From a virus: DNA of 64,000 nt. The stretch is taken from the IMG/VR virus record IMGVR_UViG_3300045988_165974, positions 1 to 64,000 of that record. One strand, given 5' to 3'. Shown one piece after another: positions 40,995-48,786 of this stretch; within the stretch, counting starts at the first letter, position 1; every line of letters begins with the position of its first letter. Made by a program: the position numbers and the translations under genes. The notes under the pieces were generated by a model that saw only the letters and a program-made list of their open reading frames with translations, did not search any database and was not told the DNA's origin.

Positions 40995-41606
40995 TTAGTC
41001 TATTTCAGGATTCTCAAAATTATATACATCATGTGTATAAAATCCTTTTTTCTTAGCTTCTTTATATCCAAAGAATTTTAGACATGTTTCTGATTCTCTT
41101 AATTCTTTTCTTGTAAGTTTAGTTTTCTCTAACACTATACTATCTAACTCTCTTGATAGTTGTTTATCTGCTTTTATTATTGATTCCATTTCTTCTAAGT
41201 ATCCAGTCAATCCAAGTCCTTGATATCCTGTTCCATGTATTGCAATTTGAGAAAATCTAGTACCTGTTCTTATATCACATGATAAAAATAAATAAACTGC
41301 CATACTTGCACATTGTCCTATTATATGTCCAATTACAGGAGCTTCTAATTCTTCCATTATACTAAGTATTGCACATCCTGCATTTACACTTCCTCCTGGG
41401 GAATTAAAGTAAATTTCAACAGGTTCTAAAGACTCTTTATACTTATCTGTTTTTTCCATATTTCTAGCAACTATTTCTTCATCTTCATCTATAATATCTC
41501 TAAGCGATTTGATGATTTCAATTGCCATTTTATTATCTATTACTCCATATATTTCTAATCTTCTGTTAACTTTGTCTTTTATTTTATCTTTATTGCAATC
41601 ACTCAT
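40995..41606 (-). CDS. ClpP-family (S14) serine protease-like protein
   Basis: IYFNSPGGSVNAGCAILSIMEELEAPVIGHIIGQCASMAVYLFL...QIAIHG follows the ClpP pattern, with candidate catalytic Ser in CASMA and His in IHG. Confidence 0.65.
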   Translation of the reverse strand: MSDCNKDKIKDKVNRRLEIYGVIDNKMAIEIIKSLRDIIDEDEEIVARNMEKTDKYKESLEPVEIYFNSPGGSVNAGCAILSIMEELEAPVIGHIIGQCASMAVYLFLSCDIRTGTRFSQIAIHGTGYQGLGLTGYLEEMESIIKADKQLSRELDSIVLEKTKLTRKELRESETCLKFFGYKEAKKKGFYTHDVYNFENPEID

Positions 41607-41622
41607 ATAAATGCCTCCAATC

Positions 41623-41886
41623 TTAGTATTCTGTATCTACTGTTATTGATACATTTATTTTTTCTTTATCAATGTAATTTTTTAATATTTCTTTTATTTC
41701 ATGAACATCCATATCATTTTTTGTATCTATTGTTAATTTTAAATCTTCTTCTTTTTCTAATTTGTCTAAGACTTCATCTAATCCATAGACATTTTCTCCT
41801 ACTTTTGTTTTTTCTACAACAATTAGTTCTCCATTTTCTTCTCTAATTGTTGCATCTTTAATTGTTAATTTTGATACTTTTTTCAT
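41623..41886 (-). CDS. hypothetical protein
   Basis: 87-aa acidic ORF with a good RBS context. No motif. Confidence 0.35.
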   Translation of the reverse strand: MKKVSKLTIKDATIREENGELIVVEKTKVGENVYGLDEVLDKLEKEEDLKLTIDTKNDMDVHEIKEILKNYIDKEKINVSITVDTEY

Positions 41887-41912
41887 AACATCATTTCTCC
41901 CTATTTTTTATT

Positions 41913-41986
41913 TGGTAGCAGAAAAAGGATTCGAACCTTTAGTTTTGGATAATGAGTCCAATGTGTTACCATTACACTATTCTGCG
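41913..41986 (-). tRNA. tRNA-Met/Ile2 (anticodon CAT), CCA encoded
   Basis: Manual cloverleaf: CGCAGAA-TA-GTGT..ACAC-A-TTGGA-CTCATTA-TCCAA-AACT-AAAGG-TTCGAAT-CCTTT-TTCTGCT-A-CCA. The 1:72 pair is a C:U mismatch. Confidence 0.7.
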
Positions 41987-42007
41987 ATAATATCTTTATA
42001 AAAAAAG

Positions 42008-42030
42008 AGAAGGAGTTACCAGTTCCTTCT
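42008..42030 (-). terminator. hairpin terminator after tRNA-Asp
   Basis: AGAGAAGGA-(9 nt)-TCCTTCTCT followed on the minus strand by T7. Adjacent to an inverted copy of the island box. Confidence 0.5.
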
Positions 42031-42031
42031 C

Positions 42032-42048
42032 TTGTATAACAGCAATTT
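42032..42048 (+). repeat. island box, copy 8 (opposite orientation)
   Basis: The plus strand reads TGTATAACAGCAATTTT directly 3' of the hairpin at 42008-42030. Confidence 0.5.
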
Positions 42049-42102
42049 TTTAGATAATACTATTTACTTATTTAGCAACTTCAACTCAACTAAATAAGCG
42101 AA

Positions 42103-42177
42103 TGGCGACCTACAAGGGAATCGAACCCTTATCTTTGGATAGACAGTCCAACATAATAACCTTTATACGAGTAAGCC
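42103..42177 (-). tRNA. tRNA-Asp (anticodon GTC), CCA encoded
   Basis: Acceptor GGCTTAC/GTAGGTC, anticodon arm TTGGA-CTGTCTA-TCCAA, T arm AAGGG-TTCGATT-CCCTT, then G-CCA. The D arm is weak. Confidence 0.65.
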
Positions 42178-42193
42178 ATAACTGGGATTGAAC

Positions 42194-42330
42194 TGGAAAC
42201 AGTTGGATTTGAACCAACACCCTCTTCTTGACCTATAAGATTTAATTTCTTCTTTTAAATATATTGCTGTATGTGTCCCATAATCCCACTAGACACATAA
42301 TTATTTGTGCTACCATTACACCATGTTTCC
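42194..42330 (-). ncRNA. tRNA-like gene with ~75-nt insert in the anticodon/variable region (box copy 7 inside)
   Basis: Acceptor GGAAACA/TGTTTCC, D arm GTGT-AATGGTA-GCAC, T arm GTTGG-TTCAAAT-CCAAC. Between the D and T arms are 90 nt including the hairpin ATGTGTC-(14)-GACACAT + ACAGCAAT. No CCA is encoded. Confidence 0.55.
42261..42279 (-). repeat. island box, copy 7
   Basis: The minus strand reads GGGACACATACAGCAATAT. Confidence 0.6.
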
Positions 42331-42453
42331 ATATTCGAGAGAGGAAATTATTCCTCTCTGTTTGTATATCTTGGAGGTTTTAAAATGATGAATAATAATT
42401 ACAATACACTTATTTATATTTTCAAAATGTTTTGTGGTTGAAAAATTAAATTA

Positions 42454-42473
42454 ATATTGCTGTATGTGTATTT
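42454..42473 (-). repeat. island box, copy 6
   Basis: The minus strand reads AAATACACATACAGCAATAT, starting at the stop codon of the Ro60-like gene. Confidence 0.6.
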
Positions 42474-42476
42474 ATA

Positions 42477-43991
42477 TTATACAGTTATGCAAGAATATCT
42501 TTCTTGATTTACTGCTTCCATCATTAATTCATACCCTGTTTTACCTGTTAATATTATTTCAAATGTAGATGGTGAAAATCCACTTACATATGAAATTCTT
42601 CCACTTCCTAGCATTGGAATATTATTTTGTCTTGCATCGACATTCCAATATATTAAATGTGGTATTTCATATCCATGTGATTGCCATTTTTTAGCTATTG
42701 ATTCCATTAATGTTTCATGTGAGCTATATTTTTGTTCACTTCTACTACTTCTCCAGCTCCAACAATTGAATTCATCAACTCCATTGTCAAATTCCATATC
42801 TGAAATTATAGCAATATTTTGTGGCAAATCTTCTTGAGATAAATTATTTTTTAATGCAGTATTTAATACTAAATCAAATACAGATTCAATATTTGTATTT
42901 TCACATAAATTAGTATCGTATATTCTTCTAACTTTATCTACAAAGTCAATTCCTTCAACTTCTACTAATCTAGCCTTTCTACTAAAACTTATGTAATGGT
43001 CTTTAAATGGACCTTTATTTCTTTCTGCACAATAAATTCCAAGTGAAATTGCTACATTTATTGGAGTCCCCCACATAGAACCTGATGTATCTACAACAGG
43101 TAATAAACTACAAGATTTCCCATTAAAGTAATCTTTTAAATTATCCCAATATTTATTTACAACATTTCTTTCAGTAGTTGAAGTTGAGAAACTATGTCTT
43201 AGTCCAATAGCTTTTTCTACGACTTCATAAGGATATAATGTAGCTGCATTTACAGTAGTCTTATCACTATTCATAAAAGCACTATATCTTTCTTCACAAT
43301 GTCTTTCAAAAGCTTTTCTATATTTAAGTCCTGCTTTACTTGGAAGTTTATCAAATTCTATTTCATGCCAATTATTAGAACTCATTTGTGTTTCAACTAA
43401 TCTTATATGATTTCTTAATTTCACTAATGTTTTTCTATATTTTTTAGCATTCATATTCAACTTTTTAGCAAAATATTTAGCTTTAAGTTTAGTATTAACA
43501 CTACTTGCTCCAAGTGAAGGCATCCACTTAGCTAATAAAGATATTGGTTTATTATTGTTCATATCTTTAAGGTCTGTTTCTAATTGATTTTTAACAATAG
43601 ATAAAACTTCTTTTTCGAACTTAGAACCTTTATATCCTAATTCTAATAAATCGTCCCATCTCCCAAACTCTGCAAAATAAATTAAATTCTTTTTTAATGC
43701 TTTAGAATTATTTTTTTCTAACCATTTTGTTATAACTCTAAATAATCTTCTTTCACCTTGTCCTCCTCGGACATCTCTAAAATAAAATAATAATTTCATT
43801 GATATTAAAGGATTTTCTTTATATGCTTTTTTAAATTGTAAAATTACATCTTCTTCACTACGATTTCTCATAGCTCCCCCAAAAGCGAAAAAATCTAAAC
43901 AATTACTAAAAGTAGTAACATGAGTAGTAGCTCCGTTTTCAGTTAAAGTATAATTTTCTTCTTCTTTTAAATTTCTTAAAAGTTTATTCAT
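42477..43991 (-). CDS. Ro60/TROVE-like RNA-binding protein with C-terminal vWA domain (DUF2828-type architecture)
   Basis: The N-terminus TLTENGATTHVTTFSNCLDFFAFGGAMR...LFYFRDVRGGQGERRLF has the TROVE/DUF2828-like pattern. The C-terminal vWA carries the MIDAS motif LLPVVDTSGSMWG. 504 aa. Confidence 0.6.
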   Translation of the reverse strand: MNKLLRNLKEEENYTLTENGATTHVTTFSNCLDFFAFGGAMRNRSEEDVILQFKKAYKENPLISMKLLFYFRDVRGGQGERRLFRVITKWLEKNNSKALKKNLIYFAEFGRWDDLLELGYKGSKFEKEVLSIVKNQLETDLKDMNNNKPISLLAKWMPSLGASSVNTKLKAKYFAKKLNMNAKKYRKTLVKLRNHIRLVETQMSSNNWHEIEFDKLPSKAGLKYRKAFERHCEERYSAFMNSDKTTVNAATLYPYEVVEKAIGLRHSFSTSTTERNVVNKYWDNLKDYFNGKSCSLLPVVDTSGSMWGTPINVAISLGIYCAERNKGPFKDHYISFSRKARLVEVEGIDFVDKVRRIYDTNLCENTNIESVFDLVLNTALKNNLSQEDLPQNIAIISDMEFDNGVDEFNCWSWRSSRSEQKYSSHETLMESIAKKWQSHGYEIPHLIYWNVDARQNNIPMLGSGRISYVSGFSPSTFEIILTGKTGYELMMEAVNQERYSCITV

Positions 43992-44058
43992 ATCATCTCT
44001 CCAATCAAGATACCTTTGTGTTTCCCTTTTGCTGATTGTATCTTTATATTATTTTTTA

Positions 44059-44132
44059 TGGCAGACTAAAATGGATTTGAACCATTATCTTCAAGATTCG
44101 GAGTCTCGATGTTTTACTTAAACCATTAGCCT
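44059..44132 (-). tRNA. tRNA-Arg (anticodon CCG), CCA encoded
   Basis: Acceptor AGGCTAA/TTAGTCT, D arm GTTT..AAAC, anticodon arm CGAGA-CTCCGAA-TCTTG, T arm AATGG-TTCAAAT-CCATT, then G-CCA. Confidence 0.7.
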
Positions 44133-44453
44133 ATAAAAATTTCTAGCTAGAAAATAATTAAAATTAATTAGATTAAAATTCATTATACTTGGTTAACTCC
44201 CTGATTTCTTTTAGTTGTGTATCAGGGGAAAACAACAAGTAATTACTATATTAACTTAATAGGATATTATACTTCCGACATTCTTATTAATCGCTATCGG
44301 ATGTGCGATTTATTTTGTTTGCAAACATCTTTAGTGTAGTTCCCGTAAAAAACTTACTTGCTATAAAAAAAACTTTCAGAAATCACTACACATGACAGAT
44401 TATGTAGGTGGGGTCTGTCTCCATACACCATACAAACGAGATGATTTTTTCTT

Positions 44454-44519
44454 TGGACTTAATCGGAATTGAACCGATAACATCATGCCTGATAATTTTC
44501 CCCATTAAACTATAAGTCC
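44454..44519 (-). ncRNA. tRNA-like gene with truncated anticodon arm (66 nt)
   Basis: Acceptor GGACTTA/TAAGTCC and T arm ATCGG-TTCAATT-CCGAT are perfect. The anticodon arm is reduced to ATCA-GGCA-TGAT. No CCA is encoded. Confidence 0.45.
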
Positions 44520-44525
44520 ATATAA

Positions 44526-44597
44526 TGACCTATGAGGGAATTGAACCCTCGCCCTCACCGTGAAAGGGTGATGTCTTAGCCACTTGACTAATAGGTC
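44526..44597 (-). tRNA. tRNA-Glu (anticodon TTC)
   Basis: GACCTAT-TA-GTC..GAC-A-TCACC-CTTTCAC-GGTGA-GGGC-GAGGG-TTCAATT-CCCTC-ATAGGTC-A. All stems are canonical. Confidence 0.85.
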
Positions 44598-44602
44598 ATG
44601 CT

Positions 44603-44678
44603 TGGTCTAAGTAGAGGGACTCGAACCCCCAGTCTCCACATCCCAAATGTGGCGGTCTACCAAATTAACCTATACCTA
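44603..44678 (-). tRNA. tRNA-Pro (anticodon TGG), CCA encoded
   Basis: CTAGGTA-TA-GGTT..GACC-G-CCACA-TTTGGGA-TGTGG-AGACT-GGGGG-TTCGAGT-CCCTC-TACTTAG-A-CCA. Confidence 0.85.
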
Positions 44679-44777
44679 GATATTAGAGTCTAGCATCAAA
44701 ATACTAGGCTTAATCATAACAATAATTTTTAATCAAGACTCTATTTAATACTCGTTTTTAACAGAAACGTAATTAAT

Positions 44778-44797
44778 AAATTGCTGTTAGAGTCTTT
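44778..44797 (-). repeat. island box, copy 9 (55 nt downstream of the iscB stop)
   Basis: The minus strand reads AAAGACTCTAACAGCAATTT. Confidence 0.55.
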
Positions 44798-44851
44798 TTA
44801 TAAATATTTAGCCAGAAAACCCATTCCCTTTAGGTGATGGGATGAATGGCG

Positions 44852-46114
44852 TTAAATTGCTACTGTCTGTACCATTTGTGATGTTCTTGCAGTGACTCGC
44901 TTACAGTTACTTAACTTTGGCGTTTTAAAACCTCTTGGCATTGCTGAAAAAACAATCTTATTCCCATCAATGTCCATAAGAATTGCATATCCTGTAAACA
45001 TTCTTCCCTTAATAAAGTATTCCTTGCCAAAGTATTTTACTTTGTCATATTTTCTAAAACCGTATATTTTACCAGTTGTAATAGGCTGTTCTGAACGAAC
45101 ACCTTTTGTTTTTCGAAAATCACCATCAGAAACACATTTCTTTTTGTAAAGATTACTCCTTACATAAAAAGCATTCCCTTGTGTTGATATAGTACAAGCA
45201 TCATAATAATGTTTTTTGTCTATCCCTAAATGTAAACGATTAGTCTTTGTCACATATCCAAAAGTTTCAATAGCATTTGGATAGAATCTGAAAAGCTGCT
45301 TACGGATAGAATTCATTTGCGTAGCATATTTAAGATTACCCTTAACTTTACCGCTTAATTTAGGGTTAATCTTCTCACTATGTAAATCTTTATGACAGGT
45401 GTGACATAAAGTAATTAAATTACTTTCTTCGTCAGAACCACCTTGACTACGAAATACAATATGATGAACTTCTAATTTGCTATCCTTATGCTTGCCTTTA
45501 CAATATTGACAAGTATAGTTATCTCTATTAAGTACCATTGCTTTTGTATTTTCAAATCCATAGTTAACACCTTTCTGATACCCCCAATGTCTAACCTTGG
45601 AATTTGCAAGTATTGGATTTTTCATTAAATGCATATCAAACTTCCCTGTTTCAAATACTAAAGTTGTAATTGGTAAAATAGATTTAATATATTCTATTTC
45701 CTTTACATGACTATGAAGTTTGCTCTGCATTGTAGGACTAAATCTATCCTTTCTAATAGAATTTGCACGATTTAACCATCTTGCTTTTCTATAACGAGTT
45801 TTACGATTTCGTCTGTTTCTACGATACTTTGCTCTTTGTGTCATTTTGTTAGTAATGTCGTTTCTTACAACAATTTCCGACATATAAACAATATTTCCTT
45901 TTTCATCTGATACTGCTGTTCCTATTGTTCCACTACCTGTATCTACACCTAAAATTAAATCTTGAGTGTAGTTTGTACTGTCATACAATAGTTTAATTGT
46001 AAACGGACAACGACTAACAACTTTAGCTTTTCTATCTTTTAACAGATGTCTGATTTTCCCATACCTATTCGTAGGCATAAGTGGTTGTCCATCTTTGTTT
46101 AATACATATACCAT
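44852..46114 (-). CDS. iscB: IscB (OMEGA-family RNA-guided RuvC/HNH nuclease)
   Basis: PLMP domain (KDGQPLMPT). RuvC-I ILGVDTGSGTIG. Arg-rich bridge helix RAKYRRNRRNRKTRYRKARW. HNH CQYCKG...LEVHHIV...NLITLCHTCHKDLH. RuvC-III KHYYDAC. 420 aa. Confidence 0.9.
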   Translation of the reverse strand: MVYVLNKDGQPLMPTNRYGKIRHLLKDRKAKVVSRCPFTIKLLYDSTNYTQDLILGVDTGSGTIGTAVSDEKGNIVYMSEIVVRNDITNKMTQRAKYRRNRRNRKTRYRKARWLNRANSIRKDRFSPTMQSKLHSHVKEIEYIKSILPITTLVFETGKFDMHLMKNPILANSKVRHWGYQKGVNYGFENTKAMVLNRDNYTCQYCKGKHKDSKLEVHHIVFRSQGGSDEESNLITLCHTCHKDLHSEKINPKLSGKVKGNLKYATQMNSIRKQLFRFYPNAIETFGYVTKTNRLHLGIDKKHYYDACTISTQGNAFYVRSNLYKKKCVSDGDFRKTKGVRSEQPITTGKIYGFRKYDKVKYFGKEYFIKGRMFTGYAILMDIDGNKIVFSAMPRGFKTPKLSNCKRVTARTSQMVQTVAI

Positions 46115-46117
46115 AAA

Positions 46118-46435
46118 CAGATATTCCTTTCATTAAATTAAATTAATAACTCAGCTACACAAGTAACTGTTATGCGTACTATACTGTACTGTTACCATAC
46201 AGTTGTTTCGACTTCAACTCGACAATGATATAAAGGCTTTTTACATATACATTACAAGGCTGTTCTTACTCTGACCTAACTTAAATGTATACGATAGAGC
46301 AATGGTCTGTTGCGTCAACCAAAGGTATCATGACTTAAATATCGTAGCCATCATTTCTGTGGCTTAGTCTGGTGAACCATTTAACAGAAGCCCATAAGCT
46401 TTAGCTTGTGGGTAGTTCACTTAATTATTCCTGGA
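46118..46435 (-). ncRNA. candidate IscB omega RNA (structured 5' leader of iscB)
   Basis: 320 nt ORF-free region directly upstream of iscB. It has nested stems, e.g. GTGAAC...GTTCAC enclosing CCCACAAGCT-AA-AGCTTATGGG. Upstream is a possible promoter, TTGAAA-N16-TAATTA. IscB loci are known to encode their guide RNA here. Confidence 0.6.
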
Positions 46436-46497
46436 AGGAGATTTTTCAATTACAATGCACAAATATTATTAATAAAATCCTTTTTTTATCATAAACA

Positions 46498-46517
46498 TAA
46501 TTGCTGTATGTGCATTT
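46498..46517 (-). repeat. island box, copy 5 (~65 nt upstream of the candidate omega RNA)
   Basis: The minus strand reads AAATGCACATACAGCAATTA. Confidence 0.6.
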
Positions 46518-46653
46518 AATTATATTAACTTTAAGAAGGTACTTATCAAGACACTAAACATTATAAATATGAAACTTCCTAGAATTGTTCAATTTATTTT
46601 GAGGATTTGAACCTCTAAAGCACTTGTTTATTGACTTATTTACCTATTTGAAT

Positions 46654-46673
46654 TAATTGCTGTAAGTGTCTTT
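46654..46673 (-). repeat. island box, copy 4
   Basis: The minus strand reads AAAGACACTTACAGCAATTA, 23 nt after the preceding tRNA-like gene. A T-arm-like GAGG-TTCAAAT-CCTC lies 40 nt downstream. Confidence 0.6.
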
Positions 46674-46695
46674 TGAATGTATATTTTTAGAACAG

Positions 46696-46811
46696 GACGG
46701 GAAGTAGGAGTCGAATCTACAACCTACGGCTTAAATGGCAAATTAAAATGCTGTTAGTGTATCCCTTCTATACACATATTACGTTGCTCTACCCGTTGAG
46801 CTATTCCCGTC
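46696..46811 (-). ncRNA. tRNA-like gene with ~45-nt insert in the anticodon arm (box copy 3 inside)
   Basis: Acceptor ACGGGAA/TTCCCGT, D arm GCTC-AACGGGTA-GAGC, T arm GTAGA-TTCGACT-CCTAC (one A:C mismatch). Only 3 bp of the anticodon stem remain (ACG/CGT). The insert holds the hairpin GTGTAT-(7)-ATACAC + TAACAGCAT. Confidence 0.5.
46745..46765 (-). repeat. island box, copy 3
   Basis: The minus strand reads GGGATACACTAACAGCATTTT. Confidence 0.55.
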
Positions 46812-46818
46812 ATAATGT

Positions 46819-46936
46819 TGCCGAAGAATAGATTTGAACTATTATCCTATAGCTTCCCTGTTTGAAATTGCTGCTTATGTATTTATCAATACATCTATTT
46901 ATTGGCTATTGCTCCAACCATTTGAGCTACTTCGGC
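46819..46936 (-). ncRNA. tRNA-like gene with perfect cloverleaf stems but a 51-nt anticodon loop (box copy 2 inside)
   Basis: GCCGAAG-TA-GCTC-AAATGGTTG-GAGC-A-ATAGC-[51 nt, 46854-46904]-GCTAT-AGGAT-AATAG-TTCAAAT-CTATT-CTTCGGC-A. The loop contains the hairpin ATGTATT-GAT-AAATACAT + AAGCAGCAAT. Confidence 0.6.
46865..46884 (-). repeat. island box, copy 2
   Basis: The minus strand reads AAATACATAAGCAGCAATTT. Confidence 0.55.
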
Positions 46937-47002
46937 ATATTCTAGGGTAGAATTCCTCTACCCCATTTTTTAAACAAACAAAGAAAGAAACAGTAATAAC
47001 TT

Positions 47003-47044
47003 TGAGGTCTGTAGGATTTGAACCTACTGAAACCTTCGACCTCA
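47003..47044 (-). ncRNA. tRNA-like minihelix (acceptor stem + T arm only)
   Basis: TGAGGTC-GAAGGTTTCA-GTAGG-TTCAAAT-CCTAC-A-GACCTCA. There is no D or anticodon arm. It is preceded by ~140 nt of ORF-free sequence that starts at box copy 1. Confidence 0.4.
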
Positions 47045-47181
47045 CATTACTAGGGAAATTAATCCCTAGCATTCAAAAAGGGGAACAAAGAAATCAAACA
47101 ATGCACTATTTACATTCTTGCCAGTCATGTGGCATTTTTCAAAATCCAATTTGTTTTATTTTCTTCTCTTGTATATGTAAT

Positions 47182-47200
47182 AATTGCTGTGAGTGCATTT
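47182..47200 (-). repeat. island box, copy 1 (5 nt after the HU-like gene stop)
   Basis: The minus strand reads AAATGCACTCACAGCAATT. Confidence 0.6.
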
Positions 47201-47205
47201 ACCCC

Positions 47206-47490
47206 TTATATTTCTTTAGTTAATCTTTCTTTTGTACTCTTAGTGAATTTTATATAAGGTACTATTTTATCAGGTGTTTCATATTCATAACAACCTATTT
47301 GATTATCTATTTTACCTGCTCTACCTTTTCTTTCTTTAGTACCTATTTTTATACCACAAATTATTACTTCATCTCTATTTTCGATTACTCTATTTAATAA
47401 TCTTTCTAATCCGTCTACTACCTCTGCTGCTCTAACTTGTGTTATATCTAGTTCACTAGCTATTTCTTTTAACATATCTTTTTTTGTCAT
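47206..47490 (-). CDS. HU/IHF-family DNA-binding protein
   Basis: Start trimmed to the ATG after AGGAGA (MTKKDMLKEIASELDITQVRAAEVVDGLERLLNRVIENRDEVIICGIKIGTKERKGRAGK...). Typical HU fold pattern with a beta-arm RKGR. Confidence 0.7.
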   Translation of the reverse strand: MTKKDMLKEIASELDITQVRAAEVVDGLERLLNRVIENRDEVIICGIKIGTKERKGRAGKIDNQIGCYEYETPDKIVPYIKFTKSTKERLTKEI

Positions 47491-47592
47491 ATTCATTTCT
47501 CCTATCATTAAAAATTTTTAGAACTTCATTTCGGTAAGGAAAATACCGTCTTTTATCGTTCTTACATTTTTAATAAGGAGTTTTACTACCTT

Positions 47593-48786
47593 TTAACAAT
47601 GTTGCTTTGCACTATGTTTTTTATGTCTTTCCTCTGTCTCGCATTTTTTACACTTCGGTCTATATCTATCTTTGTTTTTTGAAAAGTGATGTATTAGTTT
47701 AGTTTCTCCACATTTAGAGCATTTTTTCCATGTTCCTTTTACAACATAAGTGTAATACCGTTCTCGGTACTCCTCCCAATATTTCTTCTCTATTACCTTA
47801 CAAATACTATTTATTGTTATGTTAACCAATTGTTGTTTCATATGTAAGATTTCTATTATCTGATAAGGTTTTACATTTCTTCTGTATAGATTTAAAACAT
47901 TCTGTTGATTCTTTGTAAAAGTACACCTACTAAGTACATCTTCAAAATCCATCATGACACAAACCATATCTGTATCATCTATTCCTTCATACTTCATTCT
48001 AAGTAAGCTTCTTATCTCTTTTTCTGTCGGAATATCAATTTCTTTAAACATCTGTGAACCAGTTGGGACTAAAGGACTTTTAAATGTTATTGGTCTTTCT
48101 AGCAATAATTTGCCATTATTTAAATCGTCTTTAACTCCATGAACTAGATAACTAAGTTCCATAGTTCCGTTTCCACTTTTCATTTTATCAATTAAGTGGA
48201 CATATAAATCGTAATAATTTTTTAAGACCTCGTGTTTTTCAATATCTTTCTTTTCAAACACAACATCTTTTACTTTATTATAATTATGTTCTACTGCTTG
48301 AAATATTGGAAAAGCTTCCCCATTATATGTTTCTTTATTATTTATATAAGGAACTCCTCCATTTCCTATCGCTAATTGATTCATAACTTTTTCTTCTTTG
48401 CAAGCTCTTCTAAACAGCTCTTTACTATTATAGATTTTATACTTTAATTCTTTCTTTTGTTGAACCTCTCCGTCTATTATGTGTTCCTTAGAATTAAGAA
48501 TATAAGTACCTAACCTCTCTAAATAGATTGCTACATTAGAAGTTGAATATAAGCTATCCTCTTTTGATAAGTGAATTTTTATTTTCTGTCTTTCTTCTGT
48601 ATCAAAAAGTTCCTCAAAGAATTCGTCATAAAACTCTTTTCCATTTATCTCATAAGTGCCTAACATATCTTTCACATATTTAACTCTATTGTCACTTCTT
48701 TGGATTGTATAGTCTAATTCATAATAATCTCTGATTGACTTCCCACACAGTTTTCCATAAAAATTGTTATTATGAAATTCATTCAA
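47593..48786 (-). CDS. hypothetical protein with C-terminal sigma-region-4-like HTH and zinc ribbon (possible transcription factor)
   Basis: FTKNQQNVLNLYRRNVKPYQIIEILHMKQQLVNITINSICKVIEK is HTH-like. The terminus is CSKCGE...CKKCE. Confidence 0.35.
   Translation of the reverse strand: MNEFHNNNFYGKLCGKSIRDYYELDYTIQRSDNRVKYVKDMLGTYEINGKEFYDEFFEELFDTEERQKIKIHLSKEDSLYSTSNVAIYLERLGTYILNSKEHIIDGEVQQKKELKYKIYNSKELFRRACKEEKVMNQLAIGNGGVPYINNKETYNGEAFPIFQAVEHNYNKVKDVVFEKKDIEKHEVLKNYYDLYVHLIDKMKSGNGTMELSYLVHGVKDDLNNGKLLLERPITFKSPLVPTGSQMFKEIDIPTEKEIRSLLRMKYEGIDDTDMVCVMMDFEDVLSRCTFTKNQQNVLNLYRRNVKPYQIIEILHMKQQLVNITINSICKVIEKKYWEEYRERYYTYVVKGTWKKCSKCGETKLIHHFSKNKDRYRPKCKKCETEERHKKHSAKQHC

What the first reader, a model, noticed from the sequence alone, without database searches (positions are those of the whole stretch)
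42194..42330. Third interrupted tRNA-like gene, next to the Ro60-like gene
It has the same architecture: intact acceptor, D and T arms, and a hairpin+box insert starting 7 nt after the D arm, as in 46696-46811. It sits 4 kb away, 147 nt downstream of the Ro60-like gene. After the box there is a stem ATTTAA/TTAAAT, a possible loop ATTAAAT (anticodon TAA, Leu) and a long variable-like segment. If a Leu-type class II tRNA is the ancestor, the insert sits 5' of the anticodon arm. The same insert type recurs at equivalent positions in three different tRNA backbones, which argues against random decay.
Basis: seen in the sequence. Interest (0 to 1): 0.7.

Follow-up and report, generated by a model that had tools for sequence, protein, structure and literature searches.

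The report
tRNA-shaped partner RNA of Ro60-like protein
This phage gene encodes a tRNA-shaped RNA that cannot decode because a conserved hairpin-plus-box "handle" replaces its anticodon arm; the same handle marks a large, apparently undescribed family of phage RNAs encoded beside a Ro60-like protein, much like bacterial Y RNAs.

Summary
On the minus strand, 42330->42194 has intact acceptor, D and T arms (Rfam tRNA 44 bits; gathering score 29). The anticodon arm is replaced by a linker, a 6-7 bp hairpin ("S"), the box AUACAGCAAU and a non-conserved spacer.

Orthologues in four related phages keep all four helices through compensatory changes. The proposed Leu anticodon arm is not conserved.

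S plus box defines a large family. 132 of 419 independent box copies have a perfect 7-bp partner, against 2.4% of controls, with 57 different stem sequences.

In most members S is formed by the RNA's two ends and encloses nothing, an anticodon stem-loop, a T arm or a permuted tRNA body. The finding is the permutation that is open at the acceptor.

Units lie beside DUF2828/DUF7788 genes on the same strand, from mycobacteriophages to FelixO1-like, Listeria, Staphylococcus, Bacillus and Campylobacter phages. One sits in that gene's 5' UTR here. The protein's predicted fold best matches Ro60.

Some sibling units contain a core that Rfam's YrlA model detects below threshold.

Best reading: a Y-RNA-like tRNA mimic whose S/box docks the Ro60-like protein. 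Binding is inferred, not shown. It is a new variant of a known kind.

The parts
42194..42330 (-). Element C, the finding: a tRNA-shaped ncRNA. Order: acceptor 5' strand, D arm, linker, S hairpin, box, spacer X, T arm, acceptor 3' strand, A73.
   Evidence: Rfam tRNA 44 bits. Own model R1 scores 132 bits. RNAalifold independently predicts the same four helices.
42271..42298 (-). S hairpin of C: AUGUGUC, loop UAGUGGGAUUAUGG, GACACAU.
   Evidence: Conserved in L019-L022 with G-C to G-U and U-G to U-A changes. In the 24-member family 6 of 6 pairs change on both sides.
42263..42272 (-). Box AUACAGCAAU (core ACAGCAA), directly 3' of the S hairpin.
   Evidence: Invariant in all orthologues. It is the signature shared by the whole family.
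42219..42262 (-). Spacer X between box and T arm. It is not conserved and holds no anticodon arm.
42404..42472 (-). Open unit D: s AAUACAC, box AUACAGCAAU, 44-nt interior, s' GUGUAUU, then G. It begins 4 nt after the stop codon of the Ro60-like gene.
   Evidence: Orthologues carry AAUGCAC/GUGCAUU, a compensatory change.
42477..43991 (-). DUF2828/DUF7788 protein (504 aa) with a Ro60-like predicted fold: helical repeat region plus vWA domain, with an invariant DxSxS motif.
   Evidence: Pfam. Invariant D301/S303/S305. AlphaFold model, pLDDT 73. The five best Foldseek hits are full-length Ro60.
44008..44044 (-). Open unit I in the 5' UTR of the Ro60-like gene: s AAGAUAC, box AAUCAGCAAA, 12-nt interior, s' GUAUCUU, then G. 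It ends 17 nt before the AUG and abuts the ribosome-binding site.
   Evidence: Orthologues have a full unit with a Lys-type anticodon stem-loop at the same place.
44736..44796 (-). Open unit H: s AAGACUC, box UAACAGCAAU, interior with an anticodon-type stem-loop CGUUU-CUGUUAA-AAACG (GUU), s' GAGUCUU.
46455..46516 (-). Open unit F: s AAUGCAC, box AUACAGCAAU, s' GUGCAUU.
46550..46672 (-). Open unit E: s AAGACAC, box UUACAGCAAU, 99-nt interior with T arm GAGG-UUCAAAU-CCUC, s' GUGUCUU.
46696..46811 (-). Closed element B, a tRNA-like RNA with S hairpin plus box UAACAGCAUU.
   Evidence: R1 scores 49.8 bits.
46819..46936 (-). Closed element A, a tRNA-like RNA. S hairpin plus box AAGCAGCAAU lie inside a retained anticodon stem AUAGC/GCUAU.
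   Evidence: Rfam tRNA 53.3 bits. R1 scores 40.7 bits.
47102..47199 (-). Open unit G: s AAUGCAC, box UCACAGCAAU, s' GUGCAUU.

Best explanation
42330->42194 (minus strand) encodes a stable, non-decoding, tRNA-shaped RNA.

Shown from sequence and comparison:
- It keeps the acceptor stem, the D and T arms and the elbow nucleotides.
- The anticodon arm is replaced by an A-rich linker, a hairpin S, the single-stranded box AUACAGCAAU and a variable spacer.
- S+box is the shared signature of a very large family of phage RNAs encoded next to, and on the same strand as, DUF2828/DUF7788 proteins with a Ro60-like predicted fold.
- In most members the two strands of S are the 5' and 3' ends of the unit (s, box, cargo, s', G). 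The cargo is nothing, an anticodon stem-loop, a T arm or a circularly permuted tRNA body.
- Element C has the same circular order of parts (s, box, X, T arm, acceptor, D arm, linker, s') but is opened at the acceptor and closed at S.

Inferred by analogy with Ro60 and Y RNA, especially YrlA:
- S+box is the docking site for the neighbouring Ro60-like protein.
- Copies in that protein's own 5' UTR give feedback control.
- The tRNA-like body is the effector or bait module. It would be recognised by tRNA-handling enzymes (RNase P and Z, the CCA-adding enzyme, modification enzymes, ligases such as RtcB) or by host tRNA nucleases.
- The RNP would therefore serve phage tRNA maintenance or counter-defence.

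The element is probably co-transcribed with the protein gene and the downstream tRNA-Asp and tRNA-Met, then cut out by RNase P and Z.
For: tRNA frame and conservation:
- Rfam tRNA 44 bits.
- Orthologues sit at the same position in L019-L022, where the protein is about 70% identical. They carry compensatory changes in the acceptor (GA/UC to AG/CU) and T stem (U-A to A-U), and an invariant S and box.

Closed-type family:
- 24 members from 14 contigs. 98.5% of cells are paired, against at most 50% when partners are slid. 19 of 22 pairs change on both sides.

S stem statistics:
- 132 of 419 box copies not selected by the scan pattern have a perfect 7-bp partner, against 2.4% of controls (P about 1e-105). 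There are 57 distinct stems. G follows s' in 200 of 224 units.

Link to the protein:
- DUF2828 is the commonest ORF family within 3 kb of units, in 25 of 65 loci. It is on the same strand in 30 of 30 cases.
- In prokaryotic genome contigs, 11 of 20 pattern matches with an S stem have the gene beside them, against 1 of 101 without a stem (Fisher P = 1.5e-9).
- In the complete 93.8-kb Staphylococcus phage 6ec genome the only three canonical units fill the gap right after the gene.
- In the window all nine units lie within 42.2-47.2 kb, on the gene's strand.
- Units sit in the gene's 5' UTR, abutting the ribosome-binding site, here and in many relatives.
- Units also flank the gene in Mycobacterium, Shigella (FelixO1-like), Listeria, Campylobacter, Bacillus and Sinorhizobium phages.

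Ro60 and YrlA analogy:
- The five best Foldseek hits are full-length Ro60. Mycobacteriophage homologues are annotated 'Ro-like RNA binding protein'.
- Sibling units contain a T arm, acceptor stem-loop and D arm core that Rfam YrlA detects at 37.7 and 35.2 bits.
- YrlA RNAs are defined as lying within 4 kb of Ro60 on the same strand, with a short 5' motif and a tRNA-like domain (PMC4201824).
- RtcB lies next to the island in L019, L021 and Listeria phage LP-125.
Against: - No binding or expression data exist. The protein-RNA link rests only on gene neighbourhood and analogy.
- Only about 40-55% of units have the gene within the DNA that was fetched. 83% have a tRNA gene within 1.5 kb, so a role tied to tRNA arrays rather than to the protein is not excluded.
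- Some DUF2828 loci show no canonical unit within 4 kb.
- The structural model is of moderate quality (pLDDT 73, TM-score 0.40-0.46). No sequence-level similarity to Ro60 is detectable.
- The canonical YrlA motif GNCGAAN0-1G is absent.
- This window has no RtcB gene.
Confidence: 0.58

Rival explanations
1. It is a true tRNA gene, split by an intron-like element. S+box is a splice or processing signal. It would be cut out by a nuclease and the ends joined by an RtcB-type ligase. Permuted siblings would mature through a circular intermediate, as with archaeal and algal intron-containing, split and permuted tRNAs. The product would be a decoding tRNA.
For: - S+box occurs at several positions of tRNA frames: 26/27, the anticodon loop, the variable region, 65/66, and outside the acceptor. 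It occurs in both closed and permuted arrangements, which mirrors the archaeal pattern.
- Some siblings carry complete anticodon stem-loops and even an encoded CCA (L003 2773).
- RtcB lies beside the island in L019, L021 and Listeria phage LP-125.
- A PD-(D/E)XK nuclease family is the second commonest neighbour.
- ARAGORN in intron mode calls element C a tRNA.
Against: - For element C the inferred anticodon and intron site differ among orthologues with the same backbone (Phe, Asn, Lys, Ile).
- Spacer X is not conserved.
- Many units contain no tRNA part at all (phage 6ec) or only an anticodon stem-loop.
- Units sit in the 5' UTR of the protein gene.
- No CCA is encoded.
- The window has no RtcB.
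Confidence: 0.13
2. S/box units are cis-acting processing or regulatory signals of the phage tRNA operon, for example nuclease entry sites or transcript punctuation. They would have no dedicated protein partner. Element C would be a tRNA relic that happens to carry one.
For: - 54 of 65 units have a tRNA gene within 1.5 kb.
- Units lie between tRNAs, after stop codons and before ribosome-binding sites.
- No sigma-70-type promoter lies next to C, so it is co-transcribed.
Against: - In phage 6ec the three units abut the DUF2828 gene. A protein-coding gene separates them from the genome's only tRNA.
- The DUF2828 association holds against an internal control.
- The tRNA frame of C is itself under selection, which a relic would not be.
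Confidence: 0.15
3. It is a decaying tRNA pseudogene hit by a small mobile DNA repeat, either a MITE or an IS200/IS605-type end. The box would be a DNA-level target or recombination site.
For: - The hairpin+box is repeated.
- The IscB/HEARO element (46498..44788) is missing from a 98%-identical contig, and the indel is bounded by the 9-nt repeat ACAGCAATT, which is the box.
- Sequence similarity among C orthologues drops abruptly right after the box.
Against: - 57 or more different stem sequences keep perfect complementarity. That indicates selection on structure, not on a transposase site.
- All units lie on the transcribed strand.
- Compensatory changes occur in all four helices, and the tertiary nucleotides are intact.
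- The position is conserved across diverged phages.
- No other IscB was found among about 270 fetched loci.
Confidence: 0.05

Closest known systems
YrlA (Rfam RF02553) and other bacterial Y RNAs bound by Rsr/Ro60 (Chen et al. 2014, PMC4201824)
   Same: - Encoded within a few kb of, and on the same strand as, a Ro60-type protein.
- Modular: a stem with a short conserved motif next to it, plus a tRNA-like domain with canonical D and T arms.
- Several paralogues per locus.
- RtcB is often nearby.
- Sibling units of this family (MiniLon, phiM19) hit the core of the YrlA model.
   Different: - The protein is DUF2828/DUF7788, not Pfam TROVE.
- The motif is ACAGCAA 3' of the stem strand, not GNCGAAN0-1G.
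- Element C has normal tRNA order with open acceptor ends, and its handle is closed by a loop. YrlA has the order T arm, closed acceptor stem-loop, D arm, with the handle formed by the RNA ends.
- Many family members carry only an anticodon stem-loop or nothing.
- No hit to the YrlA model in the window at E <= 5.
D. radiodurans Yrn1 Y RNA
   Same: It is a Ro60-bound RNA with tRNA-like features. The order of its D-like and T-like arms relative to the RNA ends differs from YrlA (PMC4201824). This is a precedent for permuted arrangements among Y RNAs.
   Different: Yrn1's D arm is doubtful, and it has an anticodon-arm-like stem. There is no S/box motif. No sequence relation was tested.
Intron-containing, split and circularly permuted tRNA genes of Archaea and Cyanidioschyzon (bulge-helix-bulge processing with RtcB ligation); from my own knowledge
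   Same: One helix-forming element is found at varied positions of tRNA frames, in intron-like (closed) and permuted (open) arrangements. An RtcB ligase gene lies nearby in some relatives.
   Different: - No bulge-helix-bulge geometry.
- Element C yields no conserved anticodon arm after any excision.
- Many units have no tRNA cargo.
- The setting is bacterial viruses.
Two-piece tmRNA from permuted ssrA genes, and viral tRNA-like structures; from my own knowledge
   Same: These are tRNA mimicry in non-decoding RNAs, and circular permutation of a tRNA-like gene in bacteria.
   Different: Element C has no mRNA-like reading frame or pseudoknots. It has a D arm. There is no Rfam tmRNA or tRNA-like-structure hit at the element.

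Membership tests
tRNA (RF00005) | Cloverleaf scoring above the Rfam gathering threshold | tested here: met
   44.0 bits against a threshold of 29, model positions 1-71.
tRNA (RF00005) | Anticodon arm: a 5-bp stem and 7-nt loop that is conserved among orthologues | tested here: not met
   - The Rfam alignment shows a 66-nt insert in place of the anticodon arm.
- Default ARAGORN is silent.
- RNAalifold finds no helix there.
- ARAGORN in intron mode gives Phe, Asn, Lys or Ile in orthologues.
YrlA / Y RNA | Encoded within about 4 kb of a Ro60 orthologue, on the same strand | tested here: inconclusive
   Element C lies 146 nt downstream, on the same strand. However, the protein is Ro60-like only by predicted fold. 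Pfam gives DUF2828/DUF7788, and there is no sequence match to Ro60 in the PDB.
YrlA / Y RNA | tRNA-like domain with conserved D and T arms | tested here: met
YrlA / Y RNA | GNCGAAN0-1G motif near the 5' end | tested here: not met
   The motif is absent from the 137-nt sequence. A different motif, ACAGCAA, occupies the analogous place.
YrlA / Y RNA | Order T arm, acceptor stem-loop, D arm, with the RNA ends forming the Ro-binding stem; match to RF02553 | tested here: not met
   Element C has normal tRNA order. There is no YrlA hit in 41000-48000 at E <= 5. Sibling units in MiniLon and phiM19 do hit, at 37.7 and 35.2 bits, below the gathering score of 69.
YrlA / Y RNA | Physical binding to the Ro60-type protein | not testable with these tools
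   Needs immunoprecipitation or gel-shift assays.
S/box family (defined here) | 6-7 bp helix S with the box (A/U)(U/A)ACAGCAA(U/A) directly 3' of strand s | tested here: met
   GACACAU followed by ACAGCAAU, with the partner AUGUGUC upstream.
S/box family (defined here) | Next to a DUF2828/DUF7788 gene, on the same strand | tested here: met
   For the family as a whole.
Group I or bulge-helix-bulge intron-containing tRNA | A self-splicing core, or a bulge-helix-bulge at the exon-intron junctions, with a canonical tRNA after excision | tested here: not met
   The insert is 66 nt, too short for a group I core. No Rfam intron family hit. No consistent excision restores a tRNA.
IS200/IS605-type miniature element | Mobile: presence/absence polymorphism, both orientations, fixed end sequences | tested here: inconclusive
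   One indel is bounded by the box, but it spans the IscB element rather than a unit. Units are on one strand only and their stems are highly variable, which argues against mobility.

The most novel reading that the evidence does not exclude
S/box marks RNA segments for protein-catalysed excision and RtcB-type ligation. Closed elements such as this one would be intron-bearing, and open units would be circularly permuted or split precursors. Phages would then possess a tRNA splicing and circularisation pathway analogous to the archaeal one, with the Ro60-like protein acting as its chaperone. A related reading that is also not excluded: the units display anticodon stem-loops (Lys UUU, Asn GUU, Ile GAU, Ser GCU) as decoys for host anticodon nucleases.
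Probability: 0.13. Interest if true: 0.95.

Novelty: new variant of a known kind. Interest (0 to 1): 0.72.

Why it matters
Ro60-Y RNA particles are known in animals and some bacteria, but what the tRNA-like part of bacterial Y RNAs does is still open.

Here, one conserved handle (a 7-bp stem plus ACAGCAA) is attached to a whole range of tRNA parts:
- bare anticodon stem-loops;
- T arms;
- permuted tRNA bodies;
- as in this finding, a normal-order tRNA lacking only its anticodon arm.

These RNAs sit beside a very common phage protein. Its homologues occur in 711 of 50,697 phage records, including FelixO1-like, Listeria P100-like, T4-like Vibrio, Staphylococcus and mycobacteriophages.

If the handle is the protein's docking site, this natural series of cargo variants in easily grown phages makes a long-standing question directly testable: what do Ro-type particles do with tRNA-like RNAs? 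Candidate answers are repair with RtcB, quality control, and decoying of host tRNA nucleases.

The result also explains unannotated intergenic repeats in many reference phage genomes. It gives a search signature for a family that Rfam does not hold.

Tried and rejected
- Sigma-70 promoter reading of the box. Spacing to any -10-like hexamer is inconsistent, the scan finds fewer promoter-like sites than shuffles give, and none lies next to C.
- Intrinsic terminator. The hairpin before C has no U tract on the transcribed strand.
- Sequence-level link of the protein to Ro60. phmmer and a 25-sequence profile against the PDB found nothing. Only the fold comparison worked.
- RtcB in the window. None found by tblastn.
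- The 397-aa ORF upstream of the island as a Metallophos end-healing enzyme. It shows no similarity to the Metallophos neighbours seen elsewhere.
- A second IscB next to a box, to test the insertion-target idea. None among the fetched loci.
- Literature. No paper in the held library mentions DUF2828 together with RNA, and none describes permuted tRNAs in phages. The supplementary phage list of Chen et al. 2014 is not held, so I could not check whether their 22 phage YrlAs sit next to DUF2828-type proteins.
- Removing S+box to restore a decoding tRNA. Rejected for C.
- Reading open units as junctions between tandem closed elements. Rejected: in phage 6ec each s pairs with the s' downstream across its own interior, not with the s' upstream.

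Full report
**1. The observation**

Read on the minus strand, window 42330->42194 is:

GGAAACA-UG-GUGU-AAUGGUA-GCAC-A-AAUAAUU-[AUGUGUC-UAGUGGGAUUAUGG-GACACAU]-ACAGCAAU-(44-45 nt)-GUUGG-UUCAAAU-CCAAC-UGUUUCC-A.

- The acceptor, D and T arms and the elbow nucleotides (U8, A14, G18G19, U54U55C56, A58) are canonical.
- Rfam's tRNA model matches end to end at 44.0 bits (gathering score 29; E = 4.4e-6 for the window). A 66-nt insert stands where the anticodon arm should be.
- Default ARAGORN does not call the element.
- The 16-mer ACACATACAGCAATAT occurs exactly twice in the window. Box-like matches are enriched: 6 against 1.18 expected, and 0 of 100 shuffles reach that.
- The element starts 146 nt after ORF 42477-43991.

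**2. Conservation**

Four contigs whose orthologue of that ORF is about 70% identical (L019-L022), and one 97%-identical contig (L002), carry the element at the same place. It lies between an upstream repeat unit and tRNA-Asp.

- The acceptor changes GGAAACA/UGUUUCC to GAGAACA/UGUUCUC.
- The T stem changes GUUGG/CCAAC to GUAGG/CCUAC.
- The hairpin, much of its loop and the box are invariant.
- The stretch between box and T arm differs in sequence and length, from 32 to 44 nt.
- RNAalifold, run without constraints, returns exactly four helices (acceptor, D, hairpin, T) and nothing in that stretch.
- ARAGORN in intron mode calls the orthologues Phe(GAA), Asn(AUU), Lys(UUU) and Ile(UAU), with different intron sites.

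The proposed Leu anticodon arm is therefore not real. The RNA is conserved but cannot decode.

**3. A family of closed elements**

It also recovers about 20 more in other viral contigs.

In the 24-sequence alignment:
- 98.5% of cells are paired, against at most 50% when partners are slid.
- 19 of 22 pairs show changes on both sides, including 6 of 6 in the hairpin. The alignment was fitted to the model, so it leans towards this structure.

All members share one layout: acceptor, D arm, an A-rich linker of 10-20 nt, GUGUCU, a short loop, AGACAC, (A/U)UACAGCAAU, 21-44 nt, T arm, acceptor.

**4. The hairpin+box is a general module**

The second exact box copy (42472-42404) is not inside a tRNA.

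- There the 7 nt before the box (AAUACAC) pair with GUGUAUU 44 nt downstream.
- The same layout (s, box, interior, s', G) recurs at 44044, 44796, 46516, 46672 and 47199 in the window.
- It also occurs three times in tandem right after the homologous gene of Staphylococcus phage 6ec. Each copy has a different but complementary stem.

Statistics across all fetched DNA:
- 132 of 419 box copies not selected by my scan pattern have a perfect 7-bp Watson-Crick partner 19-200 nt downstream. Random positions reach 2.4% (P about 1e-105).
- There are 57 different stem sequences.
- G follows s' in 200 of 224 units.

Interiors vary:
- AU-rich filler.
- A canonical anticodon stem-loop (5 bp plus CUNNNAA) in 47 of 134 short units, against 4.6% of controls. 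The loops are mostly UUU, GUU, GAU and GCU.
- A T arm.
- A whole tRNA body that is circularly permuted, with its acceptor stem closed by a loop.

The break point of the permutation varies: 26/27, the anticodon loop, the variable region, 65/66, or outside the acceptor.

Element C has the same circular order of parts as these open units. It is opened at the acceptor and closed at S. Its nearest open counterpart shares even the D arm GGUGUAAUGGUAGCAC (Shigella phage Tf).

**5. The partner protein**

ORF 42477-43991 is Pfam DUF2828 plus DUF7788.

- No sequence similarity to solved structures is detectable.
- An AlphaFold model (pLDDT 73) finds full-length Ro60 as its five best PDB matches (E about 1e-4, TM-score 0.40-0.46). 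After these come only vWA domains.
- The vWA DxSxS motif is invariant.
- Homologues occur in 711 phage records. In mycobacteriophages they are annotated 'Ro-like RNA binding protein'.

'Ro60-like' is therefore justified at the level of fold.

**6. Genetic linkage of units and protein**

- Without prior assumption, the commonest ORF family within 3 kb of units is DUF2828 (25 of 65 loci). PDDEXK_5 nucleases, Metallophos proteins and AAA ATPases follow.
- The gene is on the same strand as the unit in 30 of 30 cases.
- A scan of prokaryotic genome contigs gives an internal control. Of matches to the pattern, 11 of 20 with an S stem have the gene beside them, against 1 of 101 without a stem (P = 1.5e-9).
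- In the complete 6ec genome the only canonical units are the three abutting the gene. A protein-coding gene separates them from the single tRNA.
- In the window all nine units lie in 42.2-47.2 kb.
- A minimal unit sits in the gene's 5' UTR and ends 17 nt before the AUG. Orthologues have a full unit with a Lys-type anticodon loop there.
- More distant homologues carry either such units or a closed hairpin nnCUUG-NNN-AAGnn, which resembles S closed at its outer end.
- Units flank the gene in cultured phages of Mycobacterium, Shigella (FelixO1-like), Listeria, Campylobacter, Bacillus and Sinorhizobium, and probably Vibrio.

**7. Relation to known Y RNAs**

Bacterial YrlA RNAs lie within 4 kb of Ro60 on the same strand. 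[quoted passage not shown]

- In MiniLon the middle of three S/box units holds exactly such a core. Rfam YrlA detects it at 37.7 bits, below the gathering score of 69 and covering model positions 23-89 only.
- phiM19 gives 35.2 bits.
- The handle differs: ACAGCAA instead of GNCGAAN0-1G.
- The window's elements do not hit YrlA at all.
- RtcB lies beside the island in L019, L021 and Listeria phage LP-125, as in the bacterial rsr-yrlBA-rtcBA operon. It is absent from this window.
- Phage ROT/TROVE proteins with tRNA-like partners are mentioned in general terms in PMC7824862.
- I found no description of this handle, of the closed permutation, or of the cargo series.

**8. Mechanism**

Shown:
- A conserved, structured, tRNA-shaped RNA gene without an anticodon arm.
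- A shared S/box module maintained by covariation.
- Genomic linkage to a protein with a Ro60-like predicted fold.

Inferred:
- S/box docks that protein.
- Copies in the 5' UTR give feedback control.
- The tRNA-like body engages tRNA-handling enzymes or host tRNA nucleases.
- The RNA is released from a polycistronic transcript by RNase P and Z. No nearby promoter was found.

I put about 0.55-0.6 on this as a whole. I put about 0.85 on the narrower claim that C is a non-decoding member of the S/box family.

Rivals:
- A spliced or permuted true tRNA (0.13).
- A processing or regulatory signal without a protein partner (0.15).
- A pseudogene carrying a mobile repeat (0.05).

**9. Verdict**

The element is best filed as a new variant of the Ro60/Y-RNA kind. 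It works like a Y RNA but fails the membership tests for YrlA on motif, topology and model score.

The finding opens onto a widespread family that appears to be unannotated. I therefore rate it as clearly interesting.

Noticed in passing
window 44788-46498 (minus strand); L002 3163-3171: The IscB gene (44852-46114) and its HEARO/omega RNA (46207-46420) are absent from a 98%-identical contig. The 1720-bp indel is bounded by the 9-nt direct repeat ACAGCAATT, which is the box. The boundary lies 78 nt upstream of the omega-RNA scaffold. The hybrid unit left in L002 has non-complementary stem strands. Box-to-box recombination therefore looks more likely than transposon ends.
   Followed up: partly
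window 42030-42039 (minus-strand RNA AUUGCUGUUA), followed by hairpin about 42008-42032: The only plus-strand copy of the box in the window lies inside the island, between tRNA-Asp and tRNA-Met. The transcript therefore carries a 10-nt 'anti-box' complementary to UAACAGCAAU, just before a terminator-like hairpin with a U tract. It is conserved in L002.
   Followed up: no
window 42338-42359; about 46945-46965; about 47050-47070 (minus strand): A GC-containing hairpin followed by (G/U)A(G)AAUAU or UAAUGU lies 6-8 nt before the 5' end of elements C and A and of the minihelix at 47043-47002. This could be a shared processing or leader signal. It is also conserved before C in L019-L022.
   Followed up: no
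window 47002-47043 (minus strand): A minihelix made of a T arm (GUAGG-UUCAAAU-CCUAC) inside a 6-bp stem GAGGUC/GACCUC. It has an acceptor-plus-T-arm shape with no D or anticodon arm.
   Followed up: no
window 44454-44519 (minus strand): A 66-nt tRNA-like sequence scores 44.9 bits with Rfam tRNA, but only 12 nt stand where the 17-nt anticodon arm should be. ARAGORN does not call it. It is a further non-decoding tRNA-like RNA in the island, without S/box.
   Followed up: no
L003 362-494 and L004 212-344: A 133-nt class-II-like tRNA with a complete anticodon stem and variable arm. It carries a roughly 49-nt structured insert containing GGCAGCA in the anticodon loop. Removing the insert would leave CUUAAAA (Leu UAA). 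This is a candidate for a genuinely spliced relative.
   Followed up: partly
L268 971-1522 (Listeria phage LP-125); L015 8593-8704: A ROOL-like RNA (87 bits; gathering score 99) lies 1 kb upstream of the DUF2828 gene of LP-125. A drum RNA (70.8 bits) lies near the gene in L015. Other large or orphan phage RNAs share this neighbourhood.
   Followed up: no
L003 8464-8534, L004 8133-8207, L006 5528-5602, L013 8806-8880, L017 3722-3796: Amber-suppressor-type tRNAs (anticodon CUA) lie beside the DUF2828 gene in several related contigs. This suggests that those phages reassign the TAG codon.
   Followed up: no
L019 108-2249; L021 1-1809; L268 5355-6509: An RtcB ligase gene lies beside the tRNA/DUF2828 island. 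In L019 and L021 it is about 713-729 aa; in L021 a faint LAGLIDADG Pfam signal suggests an intein. None is present in this window.
   Followed up: partly
5' UTRs of DUF2828 genes in L003, L005-L008, L013, L017, L018, L037: A closed hairpin of the form nnCUUG-(3-4 nt)-AAGnn lies 18-35 nt before the start codon. It resembles stem S closed at its outer end but lacks the box. It may be an autoregulatory site.
   Followed up: partly
L143 8320-8537 (Staphylococcus phage 6ec, NC_024355.1): The reference record annotates nothing in the 218-nt gap that holds the three tandem S/box units. The same is true of the other cultured-phage records examined.
   Followed up: yes
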